The translations under genes were made by a program, and so were the position numbers. This document shows positions 5,156 to 59,162 of a stretch of DNA of 64,000 nt, piece after piece. The notes beneath the pieces were generated by a model. The model worked only from the letters and a program-made list of their open reading frames with translations. It searched no databases and had not been told where the DNA came from. The stretch is from Salmonella phage vB_SenS-3. Location of the stretch: sequence record OR896822.1, one strand, 5' to 3'. Position 1 is the stretch's first letter; each line of letters starts with the position of its first letter.

Positions 5156-5186
5156 AAAGGGGAAGGAGCATAGCCCCCTCCCCTTA
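5156..5186 (-). terminator. putative terminator between 5203..5970 gene and helicase gene
   Basis: AAGGGGA/TCCCCTT inverted repeat followed on minus strand by TTTTTGC. Confidence 0.4.
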
Positions 5187-5202: not shown

Positions 5203-5970
5203 TTATTCAGCAGCCGCAGCTTTTGCATCCAGTTTAGCACGCTTAGCGGCACCATCATAGTCCTTAGCAACCAGACCACGACGAGACAGCATAGATTTAA
5301 CACCGCGCTCAGACTTACCAGTTTTCTCAGCGATCTCAGCAACAGTCATGTTAGCCAGATCCAGACCTTCTAACAGATCTTCACGAGTTTTAGCACTTGA
5401 AGTTTCCTGTACCGGCATAGCAGCGATACGACCTTCACGAAGCAGGCTCAGAGCTTTACCACGGATCTGCTTAATATTGCGACCGAAGTGAGCAGCGATA
5501 GCTTCAATAGTAGCACCAGCAACAACCTGATTAACGAAATCAGTTTCTTCGTCAGGAGTGAAGGAACGAACAGCAGCAGTTTTTTCAGTTGGCTTAACAG
5601 AAGCAGTCATTTCCAGACTCAGGATCTTACCCTGTACCTGCTTAGCACCGAACTGACCACCAGCTACAGCAGCAGCGATTTCAGCGTAAGTATACTGACC
5701 AGCATGAGCGTTCAGGAAATCAACCAGTTCAGCTTCCTGTTCAGGAGTCCACGGGGATTTCTGTACTTCGTTAGCTTTCTGTACTTCGAAACCTTCTTTA
5801 CGCAGCTTAGAGCCAACAGAGCGAGCGGTAACGTCTTTACCAGTCTCGGTAGCCAGTTCAGCAGCGATAGCAGCTACTTGTTCTTGAGAGATTACAGCAA
5901 CACCCAGAGCAGTGGCTTTTGCTTTCAGAGACTCGGTTACACCTTCTACGTTCCAGTTCAGTTTAGACAT
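5203..5970 (-). CDS. putative DNA-binding protein with four tandem HTH-like repeats
   Basis: 255 aa, Ala-rich; four repeats of the pattern xEIAxxxGxxxxxxxGKxLSL; RBS present. Confidence 0.6.
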   Translation of the reverse strand: MSKLNWNVEGVTESLKAKATALGVAVISQEQVAAIAAELATETGKDVTARSVGSKLRKEGFEVQKANEVQKSPWTPEQEAELVDFLNAHAGQYTYAEIAAAVAGGQFGAKQVQGKILSLEMTASVKPTEKTAAVRSFTPDEETDFVNQVVAGATIEAIAAHFGRNIKQIRGKALSLLREGRIAAMPVQETSSAKTREDLLEGLDLANMTVAEIAEKTGKSERGVKSMLSRRGLVAKDYDGAAKRAKLDAKAAAAE

Positions 5971-6745
5971 TATTATTTTTCTCCAATAGTTCTTTAATCG
6001 ACAGGATTTCTATCCCATTCGTTTCGGCTTTCTTATAAGATGAGGAAGAACGTTTTGATTCATCCTCACAGATTAGGTATTTGACGTCTTTGGTAACGGA
6101 CTTCTTGACCGTATATCCTAGACTTTCTAAATAGTTTGTTGCATCCGTTCGATTTGCAAAATCTTGCAAAGATCCGGTAATACAGATCGTGATTCCATTT
6201 GGCTGGGCAACTAAATCATCCGTAATGATGATATCAGCTTTAGTACCTCGAATACCAGTTGAGAATTTCCATGGTAATTCAATAACATCCTTGCCTTGTG
6301 GGGAATTTAGCCAGGTTTTGTAATTTTCTCCAGCCTTGCCGTCAGCCTTCACATCGTGGAAGCTAGTGCAATTTTGGGACAGTTTCTTTGCTGCAACCTC
6401 TCCAATAAGAGGAATTCCTAAAGAACCGAGAACCGAACCAAAGTCAATGTCTCCGCGAACCTTAGTATTTAACTCGCTAATCAACTTAGCGGCAACCTTG
6501 CTACCAACAGCTCCGACCAAATCTTCTTCGGTCAGGTAAAACAGTTCTGAGATCTTAGTCAGTTCCAGCTTCTCAATAGTTTTCGGGCCAAAGCCCTTTA
6601 ACTTCATTTTTGTGCAGAAGTTCTCGATTAACTTACTTGATTGCGCTGGACAGTTGGACTTATTCCTACAGAATAATTGCCCGTTGACAAGATCTAGCTT
6701 AGAACCACAAGAGGGACATTGTGTTGGAATTTCGATTTTCATCAA
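5963..6745 (-). CDS. ligB: NAD-dependent DNA ligase, C-terminal part (Zn finger, HhH, BRCT)
   Basis: 260 aa; C4 zinc finger CPSCGSKLDLVNGQLFCRNKSNCPAQ; HhH-like GFGPKTIEKL; C-terminal BRCT-like region. Confidence 0.8.
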   Translation of the reverse strand: MMKIEIPTQCPSCGSKLDLVNGQLFCRNKSNCPAQSSKLIENFCTKMKLKGFGPKTIEKLELTKISELFYLTEEDLVGAVGSKVAAKLISELNTKVRGDIDFGSVLGSLGIPLIGEVAAKKLSQNCTSFHDVKADGKAGENYKTWLNSPQGKDVIELPWKFSTGIRGTKADIIITDDLVAQPNGITICITGSLQDFANRTDATNYLESLGYTVKKSVTKDVKYLICEDESKRSSSSYKKAETNGIEILSIKELLEKNNNV

Positions 6746-6771
6746 ATTTCTTCCTTATCAATTTATATAAA

Positions 6772-6800
6772 TATTATAGCAAGTATTTAAGCATTTAGCA
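6772..6800 (-). promoter_or_regulatory. sigma70-type promoter in the ligA-ligB gap
   Basis: minus-strand -35 TTGCTA, 17 bp spacer, -10 TATAAT, then conserved leader ATTTATATAAATTGATAAGG. Confidence 0.6.
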
Positions 6801-6944
6801 ACTACAATTTTAACTAACTTTGCTTACCCTCGCCATAACTTTCTATCCCTCAACTGAATGATAATAGTATATACCTAAGCGGCGAAAATGTCAATAACCA
6901 CTTTATAATTCCGACATGGTAAACGGGTAGCAAAGGGTTACGAA

Positions 6945-7919
6945 TTAGTCGTATACTCGCTCTACTATACAAGGGATTACACCACCAGCACGAATCACTC
7001 GAATCTGGCAACCGATCTCTAAATCGAGAGCGTTAATATAATCAACGTTATTAAGAGTTGCTTTAACGATTGTGGCATCATCAATAATCACCGGCTCGAA
7101 ATAACCAACTGGAGTTACTTTACCAGAAGCCCCTACTTGCCATTCAACTTTAACAAGTGTGGTAATTTCGCCTTCTTCATCCTCTTTAATAGCAAATGCA
7201 CCGCGAGGAAATTTATTAGTCCAACCTTCACGGAAGAATTTGTTGTTATCATTAATACGAACAACTTTACCATCCGTCGGAATCCACTTAAAGAAGGAAC
7301 GAACATTAACAACTGTCAAGAAGTTCTCATTCTCTAGCCAAAGCATATCTTTTAAATAGGCTTCTGTAATACCGACTGTTTCCGCTGAACACTGGATACC
7401 ATATGCAACGAAGATTAAACCACCTTCACCAATACGTTGCATGAAATCATCACTATCTTTCAGGTTAATAGCACCAGAAGCATAGTTACGTTTGTTCTCT
7501 ACTTCTTTAGTAATGAGAACTTCACCAGTGATTTGAGTTGGTACTTTTTGGGAAATAGTTTTGGGGATGTTCAGCATTTTAACATTATGCGTTACATCAT
7601 TCCCTAGAATACCGTTACCACGAGTTAACGCTTGAACAAACTCACCATTAATATATAATAGAGAAATCGCACAACCATCTAACTTATCAGTTTCAACCTG
7701 ACCAAGTGGGTTGAATGGAGCTTTATCACCACGATCGTAATAGACTTTCTGCAAAGAATACATACGATACAAATGAGGGATATCACCTTTCGGTCCGATT
7801 TCTTCCTCTAGTGGGAATCTTTTAATCAGACGATCATATTCTTCATCGGAAATAAGACTCATTCCCTGGTAGTACGCTTCTTGACAACGTTTAATAAAGT
7901 CTTTTACATTATTCATCAT
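6945..7919 (-). CDS. ligA: NAD-dependent DNA ligase, N-terminal part (adenylation + OB domain)
   Basis: 324 aa; adenylation motif KLDG (TDKLDGCAISLLY); separate ORF from the Zn-finger/BRCT part. Confidence 0.85.
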   Translation of the reverse strand: MMNNVKDFIKRCQEAYYQGMSLISDEEYDRLIKRFPLEEEIGPKGDIPHLYRMYSLQKVYYDRGDKAPFNPLGQVETDKLDGCAISLLYINGEFVQALTRGNGILGNDVTHNVKMLNIPKTISQKVPTQITGEVLITKEVENKRNYASGAINLKDSDDFMQRIGEGGLIFVAYGIQCSAETVGITEAYLKDMLWLENENFLTVVNVRSFFKWIPTDGKVVRINDNNKFFREGWTNKFPRGAFAIKEDEEGEITTLVKVEWQVGASGKVTPVGYFEPVIIDDATIVKATLNNVDYINALDLEIGCQIRVIRAGGVIPCIVERVYD

Positions 7920-8109
7920 CTGCGATTTCCATTTTGAGTTCTTTATTATACTGAGCAGCCATACCAGCTAAATCAGCAGCTTCTTTTAACCACGCATCTT
8001 TGTACGCTTTCTGGTTTGGAGTGCCAGTATTGTCCTGATAATTGATCTTTGCTATGGAAAGCAAATTAAGTTTTGCTTGAATCTTTGGAAGTGTTATTGT
8101 CATTGCCAT
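7909..8109 (-). CDS. hypothetical protein
   Basis: start set at internal ATG after RBS GAGAGGA in the conserved leader; overlaps ligA start by 11 nt. Confidence 0.5.
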   Translation of the reverse strand: MAMTITLPKIQAKLNLLSIAKINYQDNTGTPNQKAYKDAWLKEAADLAGMAAQYNKELKMEIADDE

Positions 8110-8138
8110 AATTGATCCTCTCATCAATTTATATAAAT

Positions 8139-8167
8139 ATTATATATGAAAACTGAGTCGAAAGCAA
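8139..8167 (-). promoter_or_regulatory. sigma70-type promoter
   Basis: minus-strand -35 TTGCTT, 17 bp, -10 TATAAT plus conserved ATATTTATATAAATTGATGAG leader. Confidence 0.6.
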
Positions 8168-8194
8168 GTACATTTATAAAGAAAAAGCCAAGAA

Positions 8195-8503
8195 CTAGGC
8201 ATTCTTGGCTTTGAGTTCTTCAGCTCGTTTCTGTACTTCATGCAAGACCTCGGATTCACTGAGGATTTGCGTAAAAGCGTAGAATAGCTGTGACGTAGTT
8301 TCTAGGGTATAAGGAAAAGAGAAGCCGGATTTCGTTGGAAACCACTCTCCAGTAATATCTTGGAGCCAGTAACGAATTCCCATGTATAGATTCCCACGAA
8401 ATTCAGATACGGTTAGTCTTACTTGTTCTCCCTCCTTCTCCCAAAGCATGATGGACTGGTCGTCAACGTGTCCTTCATAGTTTTGATTTACCTGATCGCT
8501 CAT
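8195..8503 (-). CDS. hypothetical protein
   Basis: 102 aa ORF, coding-like composition, co-oriented with neighbours. Confidence 0.55.
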   Translation of the reverse strand: MSDQVNQNYEGHVDDQSIMLWEKEGEQVRLTVSEFRGNLYMGIRYWLQDITGEWFPTKSGFSFPYTLETTSQLFYAFTQILSESEVLHEVQKRAEELKAKNA

Positions 8504-10378: not shown

Positions 10379-10407
10379 ATTATACAGAAAAATTTTCCTG
10401 AAAGCAA
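10379..10407 (-). promoter_or_regulatory. sigma70-type promoter
   Basis: minus-strand -35 TTGCTT, 17 bp, -10 TATAAT, conserved ATTCATAAATTTGAGAGG leader. Confidence 0.6.
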
Positions 10408-32918: not shown

Positions 32919-32927
32919 AAATTAATT

Positions 32928-32956
32928 TGCTAAACGCTTCAAAATTCTGTATAATA
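32928..32956 (+). promoter_or_regulatory. sigma70-type early promoter directly abutting the HNH endonuclease ORF
   Basis: -35 TTGCTA, 17 bp, -10 TATAAT; ATG of 32962 lies 6 nt after the -10 with no RBS. Confidence 0.6.
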
Positions 32957-59133: not shown

Positions 59134-59162
59134 TTGCTAAAATGCTTAGTTTTCTGTATAAT
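59134..59162 (+). promoter_or_regulatory. sigma70-type early promoter
   Basis: -35 TTGCTA, 17 bp, -10 TATAAT. Confidence 0.6.

What the first reader, a model, noticed from the sequence alone, without database searches (positions are those of the whole stretch)
5963..7919. NAD-dependent DNA ligase split into two genes with an internal promoter in the 200-bp gap
The adenylation/OB part (6945..7919) and the Zn-finger/HhH/BRCT part (5963..6745) are separate ORFs with a 199-bp ORF-free gap that contains a consensus minus-strand promoter (6772..6800). A functional ligase would need to assemble from two polypeptides expressed from different promoters. The gap may be the remnant of an excised or decayed mobile insertion.
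Basis: partly seen in the sequence, partly recalled or inferred. Interest (0 to 1): 0.5.

Follow-up and report, generated by a model that had tools for sequence, protein, structure and literature searches.

The report
Known two-subunit T5-phage DNA ligase
This is the well-known two-gene (ligA/ligB) NAD-dependent DNA ligase of T5-like phages, whose 200-bp spacer holds two conserved, already named promoters; it is real and functional but not new.

Summary
On the minus strand a 324-aa ORF (6945..7919; domain Ia, adenylation and OB domains) and a 259-aa ORF (5963..6742; Zn finger, HhH, BRCT) are separated by about 200 bp. The window is a T5-like phage, 100% identical here to Salmonella phages S147 and vaffelhjerte. 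[quoted passage not shown] The T5 split ligase was reported with the T5 genome in 2005. The T5 RefSeq record annotates two promoters in this gap, P-K28b and P-K28a, and the window's gap is identical to T5 across both. The homologous pair from T5-like phage PR1 is deposited in the PDB as a "heterodimeric DNA ligase in complex with nicked DNA" (9HU3, 9I5I; released 2026). The split falls at the same residue in every Demerecviridae lineage sampled and in 80 environmental T5-like contigs. The promoter block is more conserved than the flanking coding DNA. I found no intron, intein or homing-endonuclease remnant in this gap. In relatives, the slot between the ligA stop and the promoters does hold homing endonucleases or other small genes. 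Verdict: real, functional, already known, low interest. Minor additions are minimal 51-nt gaps in environmental relatives and rare fused forms.

The parts
6945..7919 (-). [quoted passage not shown] It ends immediately after the OB domain (...GGVIPCIVERVYD*).
   Evidence: ORF. Pfam PF01653 and PF03120. PHROG 3359 at E=2.9e-176. PDB 9HU3 chain A at E=1.2e-106. AF2 model with pLDDT 85.6 matches 9I5I/9HU3 at TM 0.76.
6743..6944 (-). 202-nt intergenic spacer between the ligA stop and the ligB ATG. The first ~50 nt are variable and the last ~152 nt form a conserved promoter block.
   Evidence: 98% identical to the T5 gap, and 100% identical from the distal promoter to the ligB ATG. The promoter block is 97-99% identical to phages whose flanking CDS are 80-91% identical. 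No Rfam match falls in it on the coding strand.
6866..6894 (-). Distal sigma-70 promoter, TTGACA-17-TATACT. Homologue of T5 promoter P-K28b.
   Evidence: Scan (11/12). Position matches the NC_005859 feature 'promoter P-K 28b'. Its -10 lies about 122-126 nt before the ligB ATG in most lineages sampled (97 nt before the annotated GTG start in My1).
6773..6801 (-). Proximal sigma-70 promoter, TTGCTA-17-TATAAT with extended-10 TG. Homologue of T5 promoter P-K28a.
   Evidence: Scan (10/12). NC_005859 feature 'promoter P-K 28a'. It is one of 25 TTGCT-N18-TATAAT sites in the window against 0.14 expected. A promoter sits at the same distance (-10 ending 26-31 nt before the ligB start) in most cultured members and in each of the 10 environmental loci printed.
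6750..6756 (-). Ribosome-binding site AAGGAAG, 7 nt upstream of the ligB ATG.
   Evidence: Read directly from the sequence. Conserved in the gap alignment.
5963..6742 (-). ligB: NAD-dependent DNA ligase subunit B (259 aa). It starts directly at the Cys4 zinc finger (MKIEIPTQCPSCGS...C...C), followed by the HhH domain and BRCT domain.
   Evidence: ORF. Pfam BRCT and HHH_2. PHROG 3498 at E=6.1e-137. PDB 9HU3 chain B 'DNA ligase subunit B' at E=9.2e-80, and E. coli LigA 2OWO residues 402-666.
5203..5970 (-). D5 DNA-binding protein gene, overlapping the ligB stop by 8 nt. Probably co-transcribed with ligB.
   Evidence: ORF. Annotated 'D5 protein'. D5 matches found in 71 of 80 environmental loci, directly downstream of ligB in all 9 loci printed.
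5157..5185 (-). Strong terminator-like hairpin (13-bp stem, T run) just after D5. Likely end of the ligB-D5 transcription unit.
8139..8167 (-). T5-type promoter upstream of the small ORF 7909..8127 and ligA. Likely the promoter of the ligA transcription unit.
   Evidence: Pattern match. A terminator-like site at 8212..8184 lies just upstream. The small ORF overlaps the ligA start.

Best explanation
This is the ligA/ligB locus of a T5-like phage (Demerecviridae): a compact NAD-dependent DNA ligase encoded as two polypeptides. Subunit A (Ia, adenylation, OB) carries the catalytic lysine and the NAD site. Subunit B (Zn finger, HhH, BRCT) supplies the DNA-clamping half. The two associate non-covalently into a heterodimer that seals nicks, as deposited for the PR1 homologue on nicked DNA. 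No RNA or protein splicing is involved. The break lies in the naturally variable OB-Zn linker, with no residues lost or added. The spacer is a working regulatory region. Two tandem sigma-70 promoters (homologues of T5 P-K28b and P-K28a) and a ribosome-binding site start a new transcription unit, ligB-D5, which ends at the terminator at 5185..5157. ligA is the last gene of the preceding unit. No terminator-like site is seen in the gap, so ligB probably also receives read-through transcripts. Shown here: gene structure, domain content, breakpoint, identity with the annotated T5 promoters, family-wide conservation, and homology to a solved heterodimer. Inferred: promoter activity in this particular phage, the operon boundaries, read-through, and different dosing of the two subunits.
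For: The region is 100% identical to Salmonella phages S147 and vaffelhjerte. [quoted passage not shown] T5 RefSeq annotates ligA (T5.116), ligB (T5.117) and promoters P-K28b and P-K28a in the gap, and the window's gap is identical across both. [quoted passage not shown] 2005 (PMC1684257), and names ligA AAU05253 and ligB AAU05254 (PMC3632103). PDB 9HU3/9I5I, 'PR1 phage heterodimeric DNA ligase in complex with 21-mer nicked DNA', matches the two halves at E=1e-106 and E=9e-80. The breakpoint is identical in 13 cultured lineages, and all 80 environmental contigs have a stand-alone 307-343 aa LigA ORF and a separate LigB match. Promoter positions are conserved in most lineages. The promoter block is more conserved than the coding flanks. 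Alignment to fused relatives and to E. coli LigA shows the split sits in the OB-Zn linker with nothing missing. A C-terminally truncated NAD ligase (LigN-deltaC) adenylates itself but cannot ligate, so the B-type half is needed after adenylation (PMC1684257).
Against: No experiment on this exact phage is available here. I found no paper describing the PR1 structure or T5 ligase biochemistry in the held library. Promoter activity rests on the T5 record's annotation and on conservation; no transcript data were found. The generic promoter scan is not enriched in this region overall (8 found against 9.2 expected), so the case rests on the specific T5-type pattern and positional conservation. PR1's annotators predict a terminator after ligA, so read-through in the window is uncertain.
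Confidence: 0.92

Rival explanations
1. The gap is the scar of a mobile element, such as a free-standing homing endonuclease gene. On this reading the element once inserted into a single-chain ligase gene, split it, and was later lost or decayed, as in the 'genes in pieces' created by mobE in phage Aeh1 nrdA.
For: The slot between the ligA stop and the distal promoter holds a GIY-YIG homing endonuclease in Klebsiella phage AmPh_EK80. It holds a T5orf172/zinc-finger endonuclease in vB_Kpn24-P3, while the close relatives VAC51 and vB_Kpn24-P2 lack them. Other lineages carry unrelated small genes there, or a DprA-like gene. Single-chain compact relatives exist, one of them in T5-like synteny. A precedent is described in PMC3045599.
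Against: The window's gap has no detectable remnant. tblastn of all inserted ORFs gives only chance hits, Rfam finds nothing, and there are no added protein tails. About 150 of the 202 nt are a promoter block under stronger conservation than the coding flanks. The smallest gaps in environmental relatives are 51 nt and consist of little more than one promoter and an RBS. The inserted genes differ between lineages and lie upstream of the promoters, which looks like later, independent acquisitions. A historical origin by insertion cannot be excluded, but it is not what the present sequence shows.
Confidence: 0.15
2. The split is a sequencing or assembly frameshift, or a pseudogene, and the real phage has one continuous ligase ORF.
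For: Single-chain NAD ligases are the norm in bacteria. One relative, GSW6, does show a 1-nt insertion frameshift inside ligB that looks like an error or pseudogene.
Against: The same stop, 200-nt spacer and restart are present in 429 of 456 matching phage records from many laboratories. They occur in every Demerecviridae lineage sampled and in 80 environmental contigs. The gap is 202 nt with stops in all frames, not a single frameshift. The two-chain protein from PR1 was expressed and solved.
Confidence: 0.01
3. The two halves are rejoined after expression, either by a split intein (protein trans-splicing) or by a group I intron or other RNA-level mechanism, giving a single-chain ligase.
For: Phage replication genes are frequent hosts of inteins and introns, and 'fractured genes' with split inteins flanking an endonuclease are known (PMC2677866).
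Against: Neither half has a Hint/intein domain in Pfam. Subunit A ends right at the OB domain and subunit B starts right at the zinc finger, with no extra residues relative to fused relatives or E. coli LigA. No intron family matches in Rfam at E up to 10. The PR1 entry has separate A and B chains.
Confidence: 0.01
4. Subunit B has diverged into an independent DNA-binding or BRCT scaffold protein that works mainly with D5 and the replisome, with ligase assembly only a secondary role. On this reading the separate promoters reflect a separate function.
For: ligB is the first gene of a promoter-driven unit with D5, and their ORFs overlap. It probably receives transcription from three promoters against one for ligA. 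BRCT domains are protein-interaction modules (general knowledge).
Against: All four zinc-finger cysteines, the HhH motif and BRCT are conserved as in bona fide LigA. The PR1 B subunit is deposited as part of the ligase on nicked DNA. ligA and ligB are adjacent in all genomes examined. No data point to a second function.
Confidence: 0.06

Closest known systems
Bacteriophage T5 ligA/ligB (T5.116/T5.117; AAU05253/AAU05254) with promoters P-K28b and P-K28a (NC_005859; Wang et al. 2005, cited in PMC1684257)
   Same: Same genes, same breakpoint, same 202-nt gap, both promoters and the RBS identical base for base. Same synteny: regulator, small ORF, ligA, ligB, D5, helicase, primase.
   Different: Different genus (Epseptimavirus rather than Tequintavirus). 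A few substitutions in the first ~50 nt of the gap, and Tequintavirus relatives are about 91-92% identical across the locus.
Providencia phage PR1 heterodimeric DNA ligase, PDB 9HU3 and 9I5I (complex with 21-mer nicked DNA; released January and February 2026)
   Same: Two-chain ligase with the same domain split. Chain A is 54-55% identical to the window's subunit A in the structure alignment (E=1e-106; TM 0.76 to the model). Chain B matches subunit B at E=9e-80. Tandem promoters sit at the same distances in its 192-nt gap.
   Different: Different genus (Priunavirus). Its annotators also predict a terminator right after ligA, whereas none is detected in the window.
Single-chain bacterial LigA (E. 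coli LigA, PDB 2OWO; T. filiformis 1DGS/1V9P)
   Same: Same domain order (Ia, adenylation, OB, Zn, HhH, BRCT), KxDG motif and four zinc cysteines.
   Different: One polypeptide of about 670 aa, against 324 + 259 aa here. The phage enzyme is more compact and is broken in the OB-Zn linker.
Aeromonas phage Aeh1 NrdA-a/NrdA-b, split by the homing endonuclease gene mobE (PMC3045599)
   Same: A replication-related enzyme encoded as two adjacent genes whose products assemble without splicing. In some T5-like relatives a homing endonuclease gene occupies the split.
   Different: In Aeh1 the endonuclease is resident and insertion-derived tails are essential for assembly. Here there is no endonuclease and no added tails, and the spacer is a conserved promoter block.
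'Fractured genes' with split inteins and a free-standing endonuclease (PMC2677866)
   Same: Gene in two pieces in a phage-like context.
   Different: No intein halves at the junction, so there is no protein splicing.

Membership tests
NAD-dependent DNA ligase (LigA family, EC 6.5.1.2) | Adenylation (nucleotidyltransferase) domain with motif I KxDG | tested here: met
   PF01653 at E=1.3e-23. KLDG at residues 79-82 is invariant in alignments A2 and A4.
NAD-dependent DNA ligase (LigA family, EC 6.5.1.2) | N-terminal domain Ia that specifies NAD+ (conserved Tyr and Asp residues) | tested here: met
   Residues 2-43 align to domain Ia of T. filiformis ligase (YY...D..YD). Y16, D25 and D29 are invariant. 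Cofactor use itself was not tested.
NAD-dependent DNA ligase (LigA family, EC 6.5.1.2) | OB-fold domain following the adenylation domain | tested here: met
   PF03120 at E=9.4e-22, residues 253-322. It aligns to 2OWO residues 284-390.
NAD-dependent DNA ligase (LigA family, EC 6.5.1.2) | Cys4 zinc finger, HhH domain and BRCT domain C-terminal to the OB domain | tested here: met
   All are present, but on the second polypeptide. It aligns to 2OWO residues 402-529 and 585-666. The four Cys are invariant. BRCT PF00533 at E=7.5e-9; HHH_2 at 21.6 bits, below the 27-bit cutoff.
NAD-dependent DNA ligase (LigA family, EC 6.5.1.2) | Single polypeptide chain | tested here: not met
   Stop at 6945-6947, then a 202-nt spacer with stops in all frames and a new start at 6742. 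This is the known exception that defines the T5-type two-subunit form.
T5-type two-subunit (heterodimeric) NAD ligase, ligA/ligB of Demerecviridae | Subunit A ends after the OB domain and subunit B starts at the zinc finger, at the family's fixed breakpoint | tested here: met
   ...IPCIVERVYD* and MKIEIPTQCPSCGS are the same as in T5, and equivalent in 12 other lineages. PHROG 3359 and 3498 are matched end to end.
T5-type two-subunit (heterodimeric) NAD ligase, ligA/ligB of Demerecviridae | Adjacent genes in conserved synteny (regulator, ligA, ligB, D5, DnaB-like helicase, primase) | tested here: met
   The same order holds in the environmental loci examined.
T5-type two-subunit (heterodimeric) NAD ligase, ligA/ligB of Demerecviridae | Promoter(s) directly upstream of ligB (T5 P-K28b and P-K28a) | tested here: met
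   Sequence identical to the annotated T5 promoters. Promoter activity in vivo was not tested here.
T5-type two-subunit (heterodimeric) NAD ligase, ligA/ligB of Demerecviridae | The two polypeptides form a heterodimer that seals nicked DNA | not testable with these tools
   Inferred from homology to PDB 9HU3/9I5I, 'PR1 phage heterodimeric DNA ligase in complex with nicked DNA'.
Split-intein 'fractured gene' | Intein (Hint) halves at the C-terminus of piece 1 and the N-terminus of piece 2 | tested here: not met
   No Hint-family hit. No extra residues at either end relative to fused relatives.
Group I/II intron-interrupted gene | Structured intron RNA between the exons | tested here: not met
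   No intron family in Rfam at E up to 10 over 5800..8100. The gap is only 202 nt and mostly promoter.
Homing-endonuclease-fragmented gene (Aeh1 nrdA/mobE type) | Free-standing homing endonuclease gene, or a recognisable remnant, between the two halves | tested here: not met
   No credible ORF in the gap and no tblastn trace of the relatives' inserted genes. It is met in some relatives: AmPh_EK80 (GIY-YIG) and vB_Kpn24-P3 (T5orf172).

The most novel reading that the evidence does not exclude
The split may be an adaptive operon boundary rather than a scar. On this reading, a strong promoter arose or was placed inside the OB-Zn linker of a single-chain ligase in an ancestor of T5-like phages. 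The DNA-binding half (ligB) then became the first gene of a ligB-D5 unit and could be dosed or timed independently of the catalytic half. The minimal 51-105-nt gaps of environmental T5-like viruses, mostly in frame and consisting of little more than one promoter plus an RBS, would be close to the original state. The second promoter and the endonuclease or small-gene cargo would be later additions, and the rare fused forms (for example P0036 in T5-like synteny) would be either ancestral survivors or re-fusions.
Probability: 0.25. Interest if true: 0.4.

Novelty: already known. Interest (0 to 1): 0.15.

Why it matters
For the scan it matters mainly as a calibration case. The comparative picture built here adds modest context. 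The break point is fixed across cultured Demerecviridae and 80 environmental relatives. The spacer is a conserved promoter region rather than junk. The site immediately after ligA is a recurrent landing place for homing endonucleases and small accessory genes. Single-chain versions survive or re-emerge rarely. This could interest people studying how essential enzymes tolerate fission and how phage promoters shape gene boundaries. It does not open a new question.

Tried and rejected
- Rfam scan of 5800..8100 at E up to 10: only chance-level hits and no intron family.
- Intein or extra-residue check against PDB LigA chains and fused relatives: nothing extra at the junction.
- tblastn of every gene inserted in relatives against the whole window: chance hits only, none in the gap.
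- Pfam and PHROG scans of the Vibrio, Proteus and bastian inserted ORFs: no endonuclease. Two are DprA-like and the rest unknown.
- Literature search for the gap's promoter sequences as text: no hits.
- Searches for PDB codes 9HU3/9I5I and for 'split' or 'heterodimeric DNA ligase': no relevant paper in the held library.
- Search for T5 transcriptome data: nothing relevant.
- Attempts to find the contig of the fused relative P0036 in viral contigs and metagenome contigs: nothing. P0038 gave only more split loci. The contig was finally reached through the search for homologous proteins and the look-up of encoding contigs.
- The frame bias in environmental relatives (LigA and LigB in the same frame in 76 of 80) was considered as evidence for stop-codon read-through. 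I rejected this because the gaps contain further in-frame stops.
- I also did not treat the bias as strong evidence of origin, because the anchors lie within coding tails and the loci are related.
- The NJ tree has no support values and long terminal branches, so I do not rely on it for the direction of change.
Full report
**What is there.** On the minus strand, ORF 6945..7919 (324 aa) is followed by a spacer and then ORF 5963..6745/6742 (260/259 aa).
- The first ORF carries the NAD-ligase adenylation domain (PF01653, E=1.3e-23) and the ligase OB domain (PF03120, E=9.4e-22).
- The second carries BRCT (E=7.5e-9) and a sub-threshold HhH match.
- The second ORF opens directly with a four-cysteine zinc finger, MKIEIPTQCPSCGS...C.....C.
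- PHROG families 3359 and 3498, both named NAD-dependent DNA ligase, are matched end to end. The two ORFs map to positions 9-381 and 388-654 of the single-chain phage ligase family phrog_3869.

- Public records start ligB at the ATG at 6742, behind an AAGGAAG ribosome-binding site at 6750..6756, which makes the gap 202 nt.
- A second, stronger promoter-like site lies at 6894..6866.

**Identity of the window.** The 2.3-kb region is 100% identical to Salmonella phages S147, vaffelhjerte and PMBT36 (Epseptimavirus, Demerecviridae). It matches 456 phage records at megablast level, 429 of them over at least 80% of the query. [quoted passage not shown]

**Already described.**
- The T5 RefSeq record NC_005859 annotates ligA (T5.116) and ligB (T5.117). 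Between them it annotates two regulatory features, 'promoter P-K 28b' and 'promoter P-K 28a'.
- The window's gap aligns to the T5 gap at 98% overall. It is identical from just upstream of the distal -35 box to the ligB start codon. The two promoter-like sites in the window are therefore the homologues of P-K28b (distal) and P-K28a (proximal).
[quoted passage not shown] 2005 (PMC1684257). [quoted passage not shown]
- The PDB holds two-chain entries 9HU3 and 9I5I whose chains match the window's halves at E=1.2e-106 and E=9.2e-80.
- Chain A is 100% identical to the ligA product of Providencia phage vB_PreS_PR1, another member of Demerecviridae.
- An AlphaFold model of the window's subunit A (mean pLDDT 85.6) retrieves these entries first (TM 0.76). 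Their titles are 'PR1 phage heterodimeric DNA ligase in complex with 21-mer nicked DNA containing phage nick sequence' (released 2026-01-14) and the random-sequence version (released 2026-02-18).
- I could not find the corresponding paper in the held library.

**Breakpoint.**
- Against E. coli LigA (2OWO), subunit A aligns up to about residue 390, the end of the OB domain. Subunit B aligns from residue 402, just before the zinc-finger CxxC.
- Against five single-chain compact relatives of 557-586 aa, the concatenated A+B sequence aligns continuously. The stop and restart fall inside a linker whose length varies among the fused proteins. No residues are missing or added.
- There is no Hint/intein domain and no intron-like RNA.
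- The break is at the same residue in all cultured lineages examined: T5, Epseptimavirus, Sugarlandvirus, Priunavirus, Myunavirus, Novosibvirus and three Vibrio-phage genera. This points to a single ancient fission.

**The gap is a regulatory region, not debris.**
- In most cultured lineages sampled, a TTGACA/TTGACG-17-TATACT/TATAAT promoter has its -10 ending about 122-126 nt before the annotated ligB start (97 nt before My1's annotated GTG start).
- In most of them a TTGCTA/TTGCCA-17-TATAAT promoter ends 28-31 nt before the start. My scan did not call the proximal promoter in VAC51, My1 or Chester.
- The 152-nt promoter block is more conserved than the coding DNA on either side:

| Phage compared | Promoter block | ligA CDS | ligB CDS |
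|---|---|---|---|
| GSW6 | 99.3% | 84.8% | 91.3% |
| phiR2-01 | 97.4% | 80.4% | 87.9% |
| Klebsiella VAC51 | 77.6% | 68.0% | 66.5% |

- The proximal promoter belongs to a family of 25 TTGCT-N18-TATAAT sites in the window, against 0.14 expected by chance. All 25 are oriented with local transcription. About 60 nt around it resemble a dozen other sites in the window.
- No terminator-like site is found in the gap. Strong ones lie at 8212..8184 and 5185..5157.
- My reading of the units, which is an inference: promoter 8167..8139 drives a small ORF and ligA. P-K28b and P-K28a drive ligB and D5 up to the terminator after D5, and ligA transcripts probably read through.

**The 'mobile element' idea.** The window's gap shows no remnant of any inserted gene. 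The position immediately after the ligA stop, upstream of the promoters, is nevertheless variable across the family.

| Phage | Cargo after the ligA stop |
|---|---|
| bastian (same genus as the window) | 156-bp insertion with a 64-aa ORF |
| Proteus RP7 | 55-aa ORF |
| Vibrio D117 | two small ORFs |
| Vibrio JSF10 | small ORF plus a DprA-like gene |
| Vibrio Chester | three ORFs, one of them DprA-like |
| Serratia Kamaji | 204-aa ORF with no family match |
| Klebsiella AmPh_EK80 | GIY-YIG homing endonuclease |
| Klebsiella vB_Kpn24-P3 | T5orf172/zinc-finger endonuclease |

- The close relatives VAC51 and vB_Kpn24-P2 lack the endonucleases.
- The small ORFs are unrelated to one another.
- This pattern looks like repeated, independent acquisition at an operon boundary.
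- It resembles endonuclease-fragmented 'genes in pieces' such as Aeh1 nrdA/mobE (PMC3045599). Unlike that case, there are no insertion-derived tails and, in this phage, no endonuclease.
- An insertional origin of the original fission cannot be excluded, but the present sequence gives no evidence for it.

**Wider distribution (new context, modest).**
- Among 50%-identity cluster representatives, about 55 of the nearest relatives of subunit A are stand-alone proteins of 305-340 aa. Single-chain compact forms of 555-586 aa begin at about 45% identity.
- A scan of IMG/VR returned 80 contigs. Most show matches to the T5 neighbour genes D3, regulator, D5 and helicase (64-75 of 80 loci), and all are split.
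- Their gaps are only 51-105 nt. Each of the 10 loci printed holds a single near-consensus promoter whose -10 ends 26-29 nt before the ligB start in nine of them. In the 51-nt gaps the -35 box overlaps the end of ligA.
- LigA and LigB are in the same frame in 76 of 80 contigs. Nine of ten anchor-distance classes are multiples of three. The gaps contain further in-frame stops, the anchors lie in coding tails and the contigs are related, so I treat this only as a weak hint of an in-frame origin.
- One fused protein (P0036, 557 aa) is a singleton whose 119 nearest homologues are all split A subunits. Its contig has T5-like synteny.
- A quick neighbour-joining tree without support values places several fused forms basally and a few among split forms. 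The direction and number of state changes remain open.

**Mechanism, with its basis.**
- Shown by sequence and homology: two polypeptides that together contain every LigA domain, with the catalytic KxDG lysine and the NAD-specifying domain Ia on subunit A, and the zinc finger, HhH and BRCT on subunit B.
- Established for other NAD ligases: the Ia-adenylation-OB part self-adenylates, but nick sealing needs the C-terminal DNA-binding part. One example is LigN-deltaC, which was made explicitly because of the T5 split (PMC1684257).
- Established for the PR1 homologue by its PDB entry: the two chains form a heterodimer on nicked DNA.
- Inferred for this phage: the same assembly, and separate transcriptional input to the two halves.

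**Verdict.** It is the textbook ligA/ligB arrangement of T5-like phages, with named promoters in the spacer and a solved homologous heterodimer. Novelty: already known. Interest is low (0.15).

Noticed in passing
window, 25 sites, e.g. 8139..8167(-), 10379..10407(-), 32927..32955(+), 59134..59162(+): TTGCT-N18-TATAAT occurs 25 times against 0.14 expected. All sites up to 17.7 kb are on the minus strand and all from 19.9 kb on the plus strand, which marks a divergent transcription switch between about 17.7 and 19.9 kb. The site at 10379..10407 (TTGCTTTCAGGAAAATTTTTCTGTATAAT) looks, from memory only, like the core of the classical T5 PN25 promoter used in expression vectors. I did not verify this.
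   Followed up: partly
window 6810..6836 (-), between the two gap promoters: An 8-codon mini-ORF (ATG GCG AGG GTA AGC AAA GTT AGT TAA) follows a GAGGGA Shine-Dalgarno-like element. It would lie in the leader of the distal-promoter transcript and ends just before the proximal -35 box. Comparable short ORFs occur at the same place in PR1 (9 codons) and RP7 (7 codons, TTG start), and less clearly in VAC51. It could be chance or a leader peptide.
   Followed up: no
L017-L096 (IMG/VR contigs), ligA/ligB junctions: Environmental T5-like viruses have the same split with gaps of only 51-105 nt. Each of the 10 loci printed holds one near-perfect sigma-70 promoter, and in the 51-nt gaps the -35 box overlaps the 3' end of ligA. 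LigA and LigB are in the same reading frame in 76 of 80 contigs.
   Followed up: partly
L099 6001..7674 (JGI contig Ga0502775_0003803): A single-chain 557-aa compact ligase (P0036) sits in T5-like synteny (PC4-like regulator, ligase, 237-aa gene, DnaB helicase, primase). It is a singleton whose nearest 119 homologues are all split A subunits, so it is either a rare ancestral survivor or a re-fusion.
   Followed up: partly
L014 1559..2257; L016 1559..2218; L015 1670..2284: Klebsiella phages vB_Kpn24-P3 and AmPh_EK80 carry two different endonuclease genes (T5orf172 with a treble-clef zinc finger; GIY-YIG) in the same slot right after ligA. Their close relatives lack them. Serratia phage Kamaji has a 204-aa ORF there with no family match.
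   Followed up: partly
L002 3755..4315; L003 3344..3916: Vibrio T5-like phages Chester and JSF10 carry a DprA-like recombination-mediator gene (phrog_768; 44% identical to each other) between ligA and ligB. JSF10 also has a 73-aa ORF labelled 'DNA ligase' (phrog_13916) that shows no similarity to ligase domains in Pfam.
   Followed up: partly
L008 1967..1998 (rokbiter ligB); L009 about 2030 (GSW6 ligB): In rokbiter, ligB has an in-frame 24-nt expansion of a GACATT hexanucleotide repeat, which adds DIDIDIDI in the HhH region. The window has 1.5 copies of the repeat at the same place. In GSW6, ligB is annotated as two CDS because of a single extra T, which is a likely sequencing error or pseudogene.
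   Followed up: yes
window 7909..7919 and 5963..5970 (-): The small upstream ORF overlaps the ligA start by 11 nt (ATGATGAATAA), and ligB overlaps the D5 start by 8 nt (ATGTCTAA). Both arrangements are typical of translational coupling within each transcription unit.
   Followed up: no
window 5157..5185 (-): The strong terminator-like hairpin after D5 overlaps the ATG at 5171 that the ORF listing and one public record use as the start of the DnaB-like helicase. T5 annotates a start five codons shorter, so the helicase start in this phage may be mis-set.
   Followed up: no
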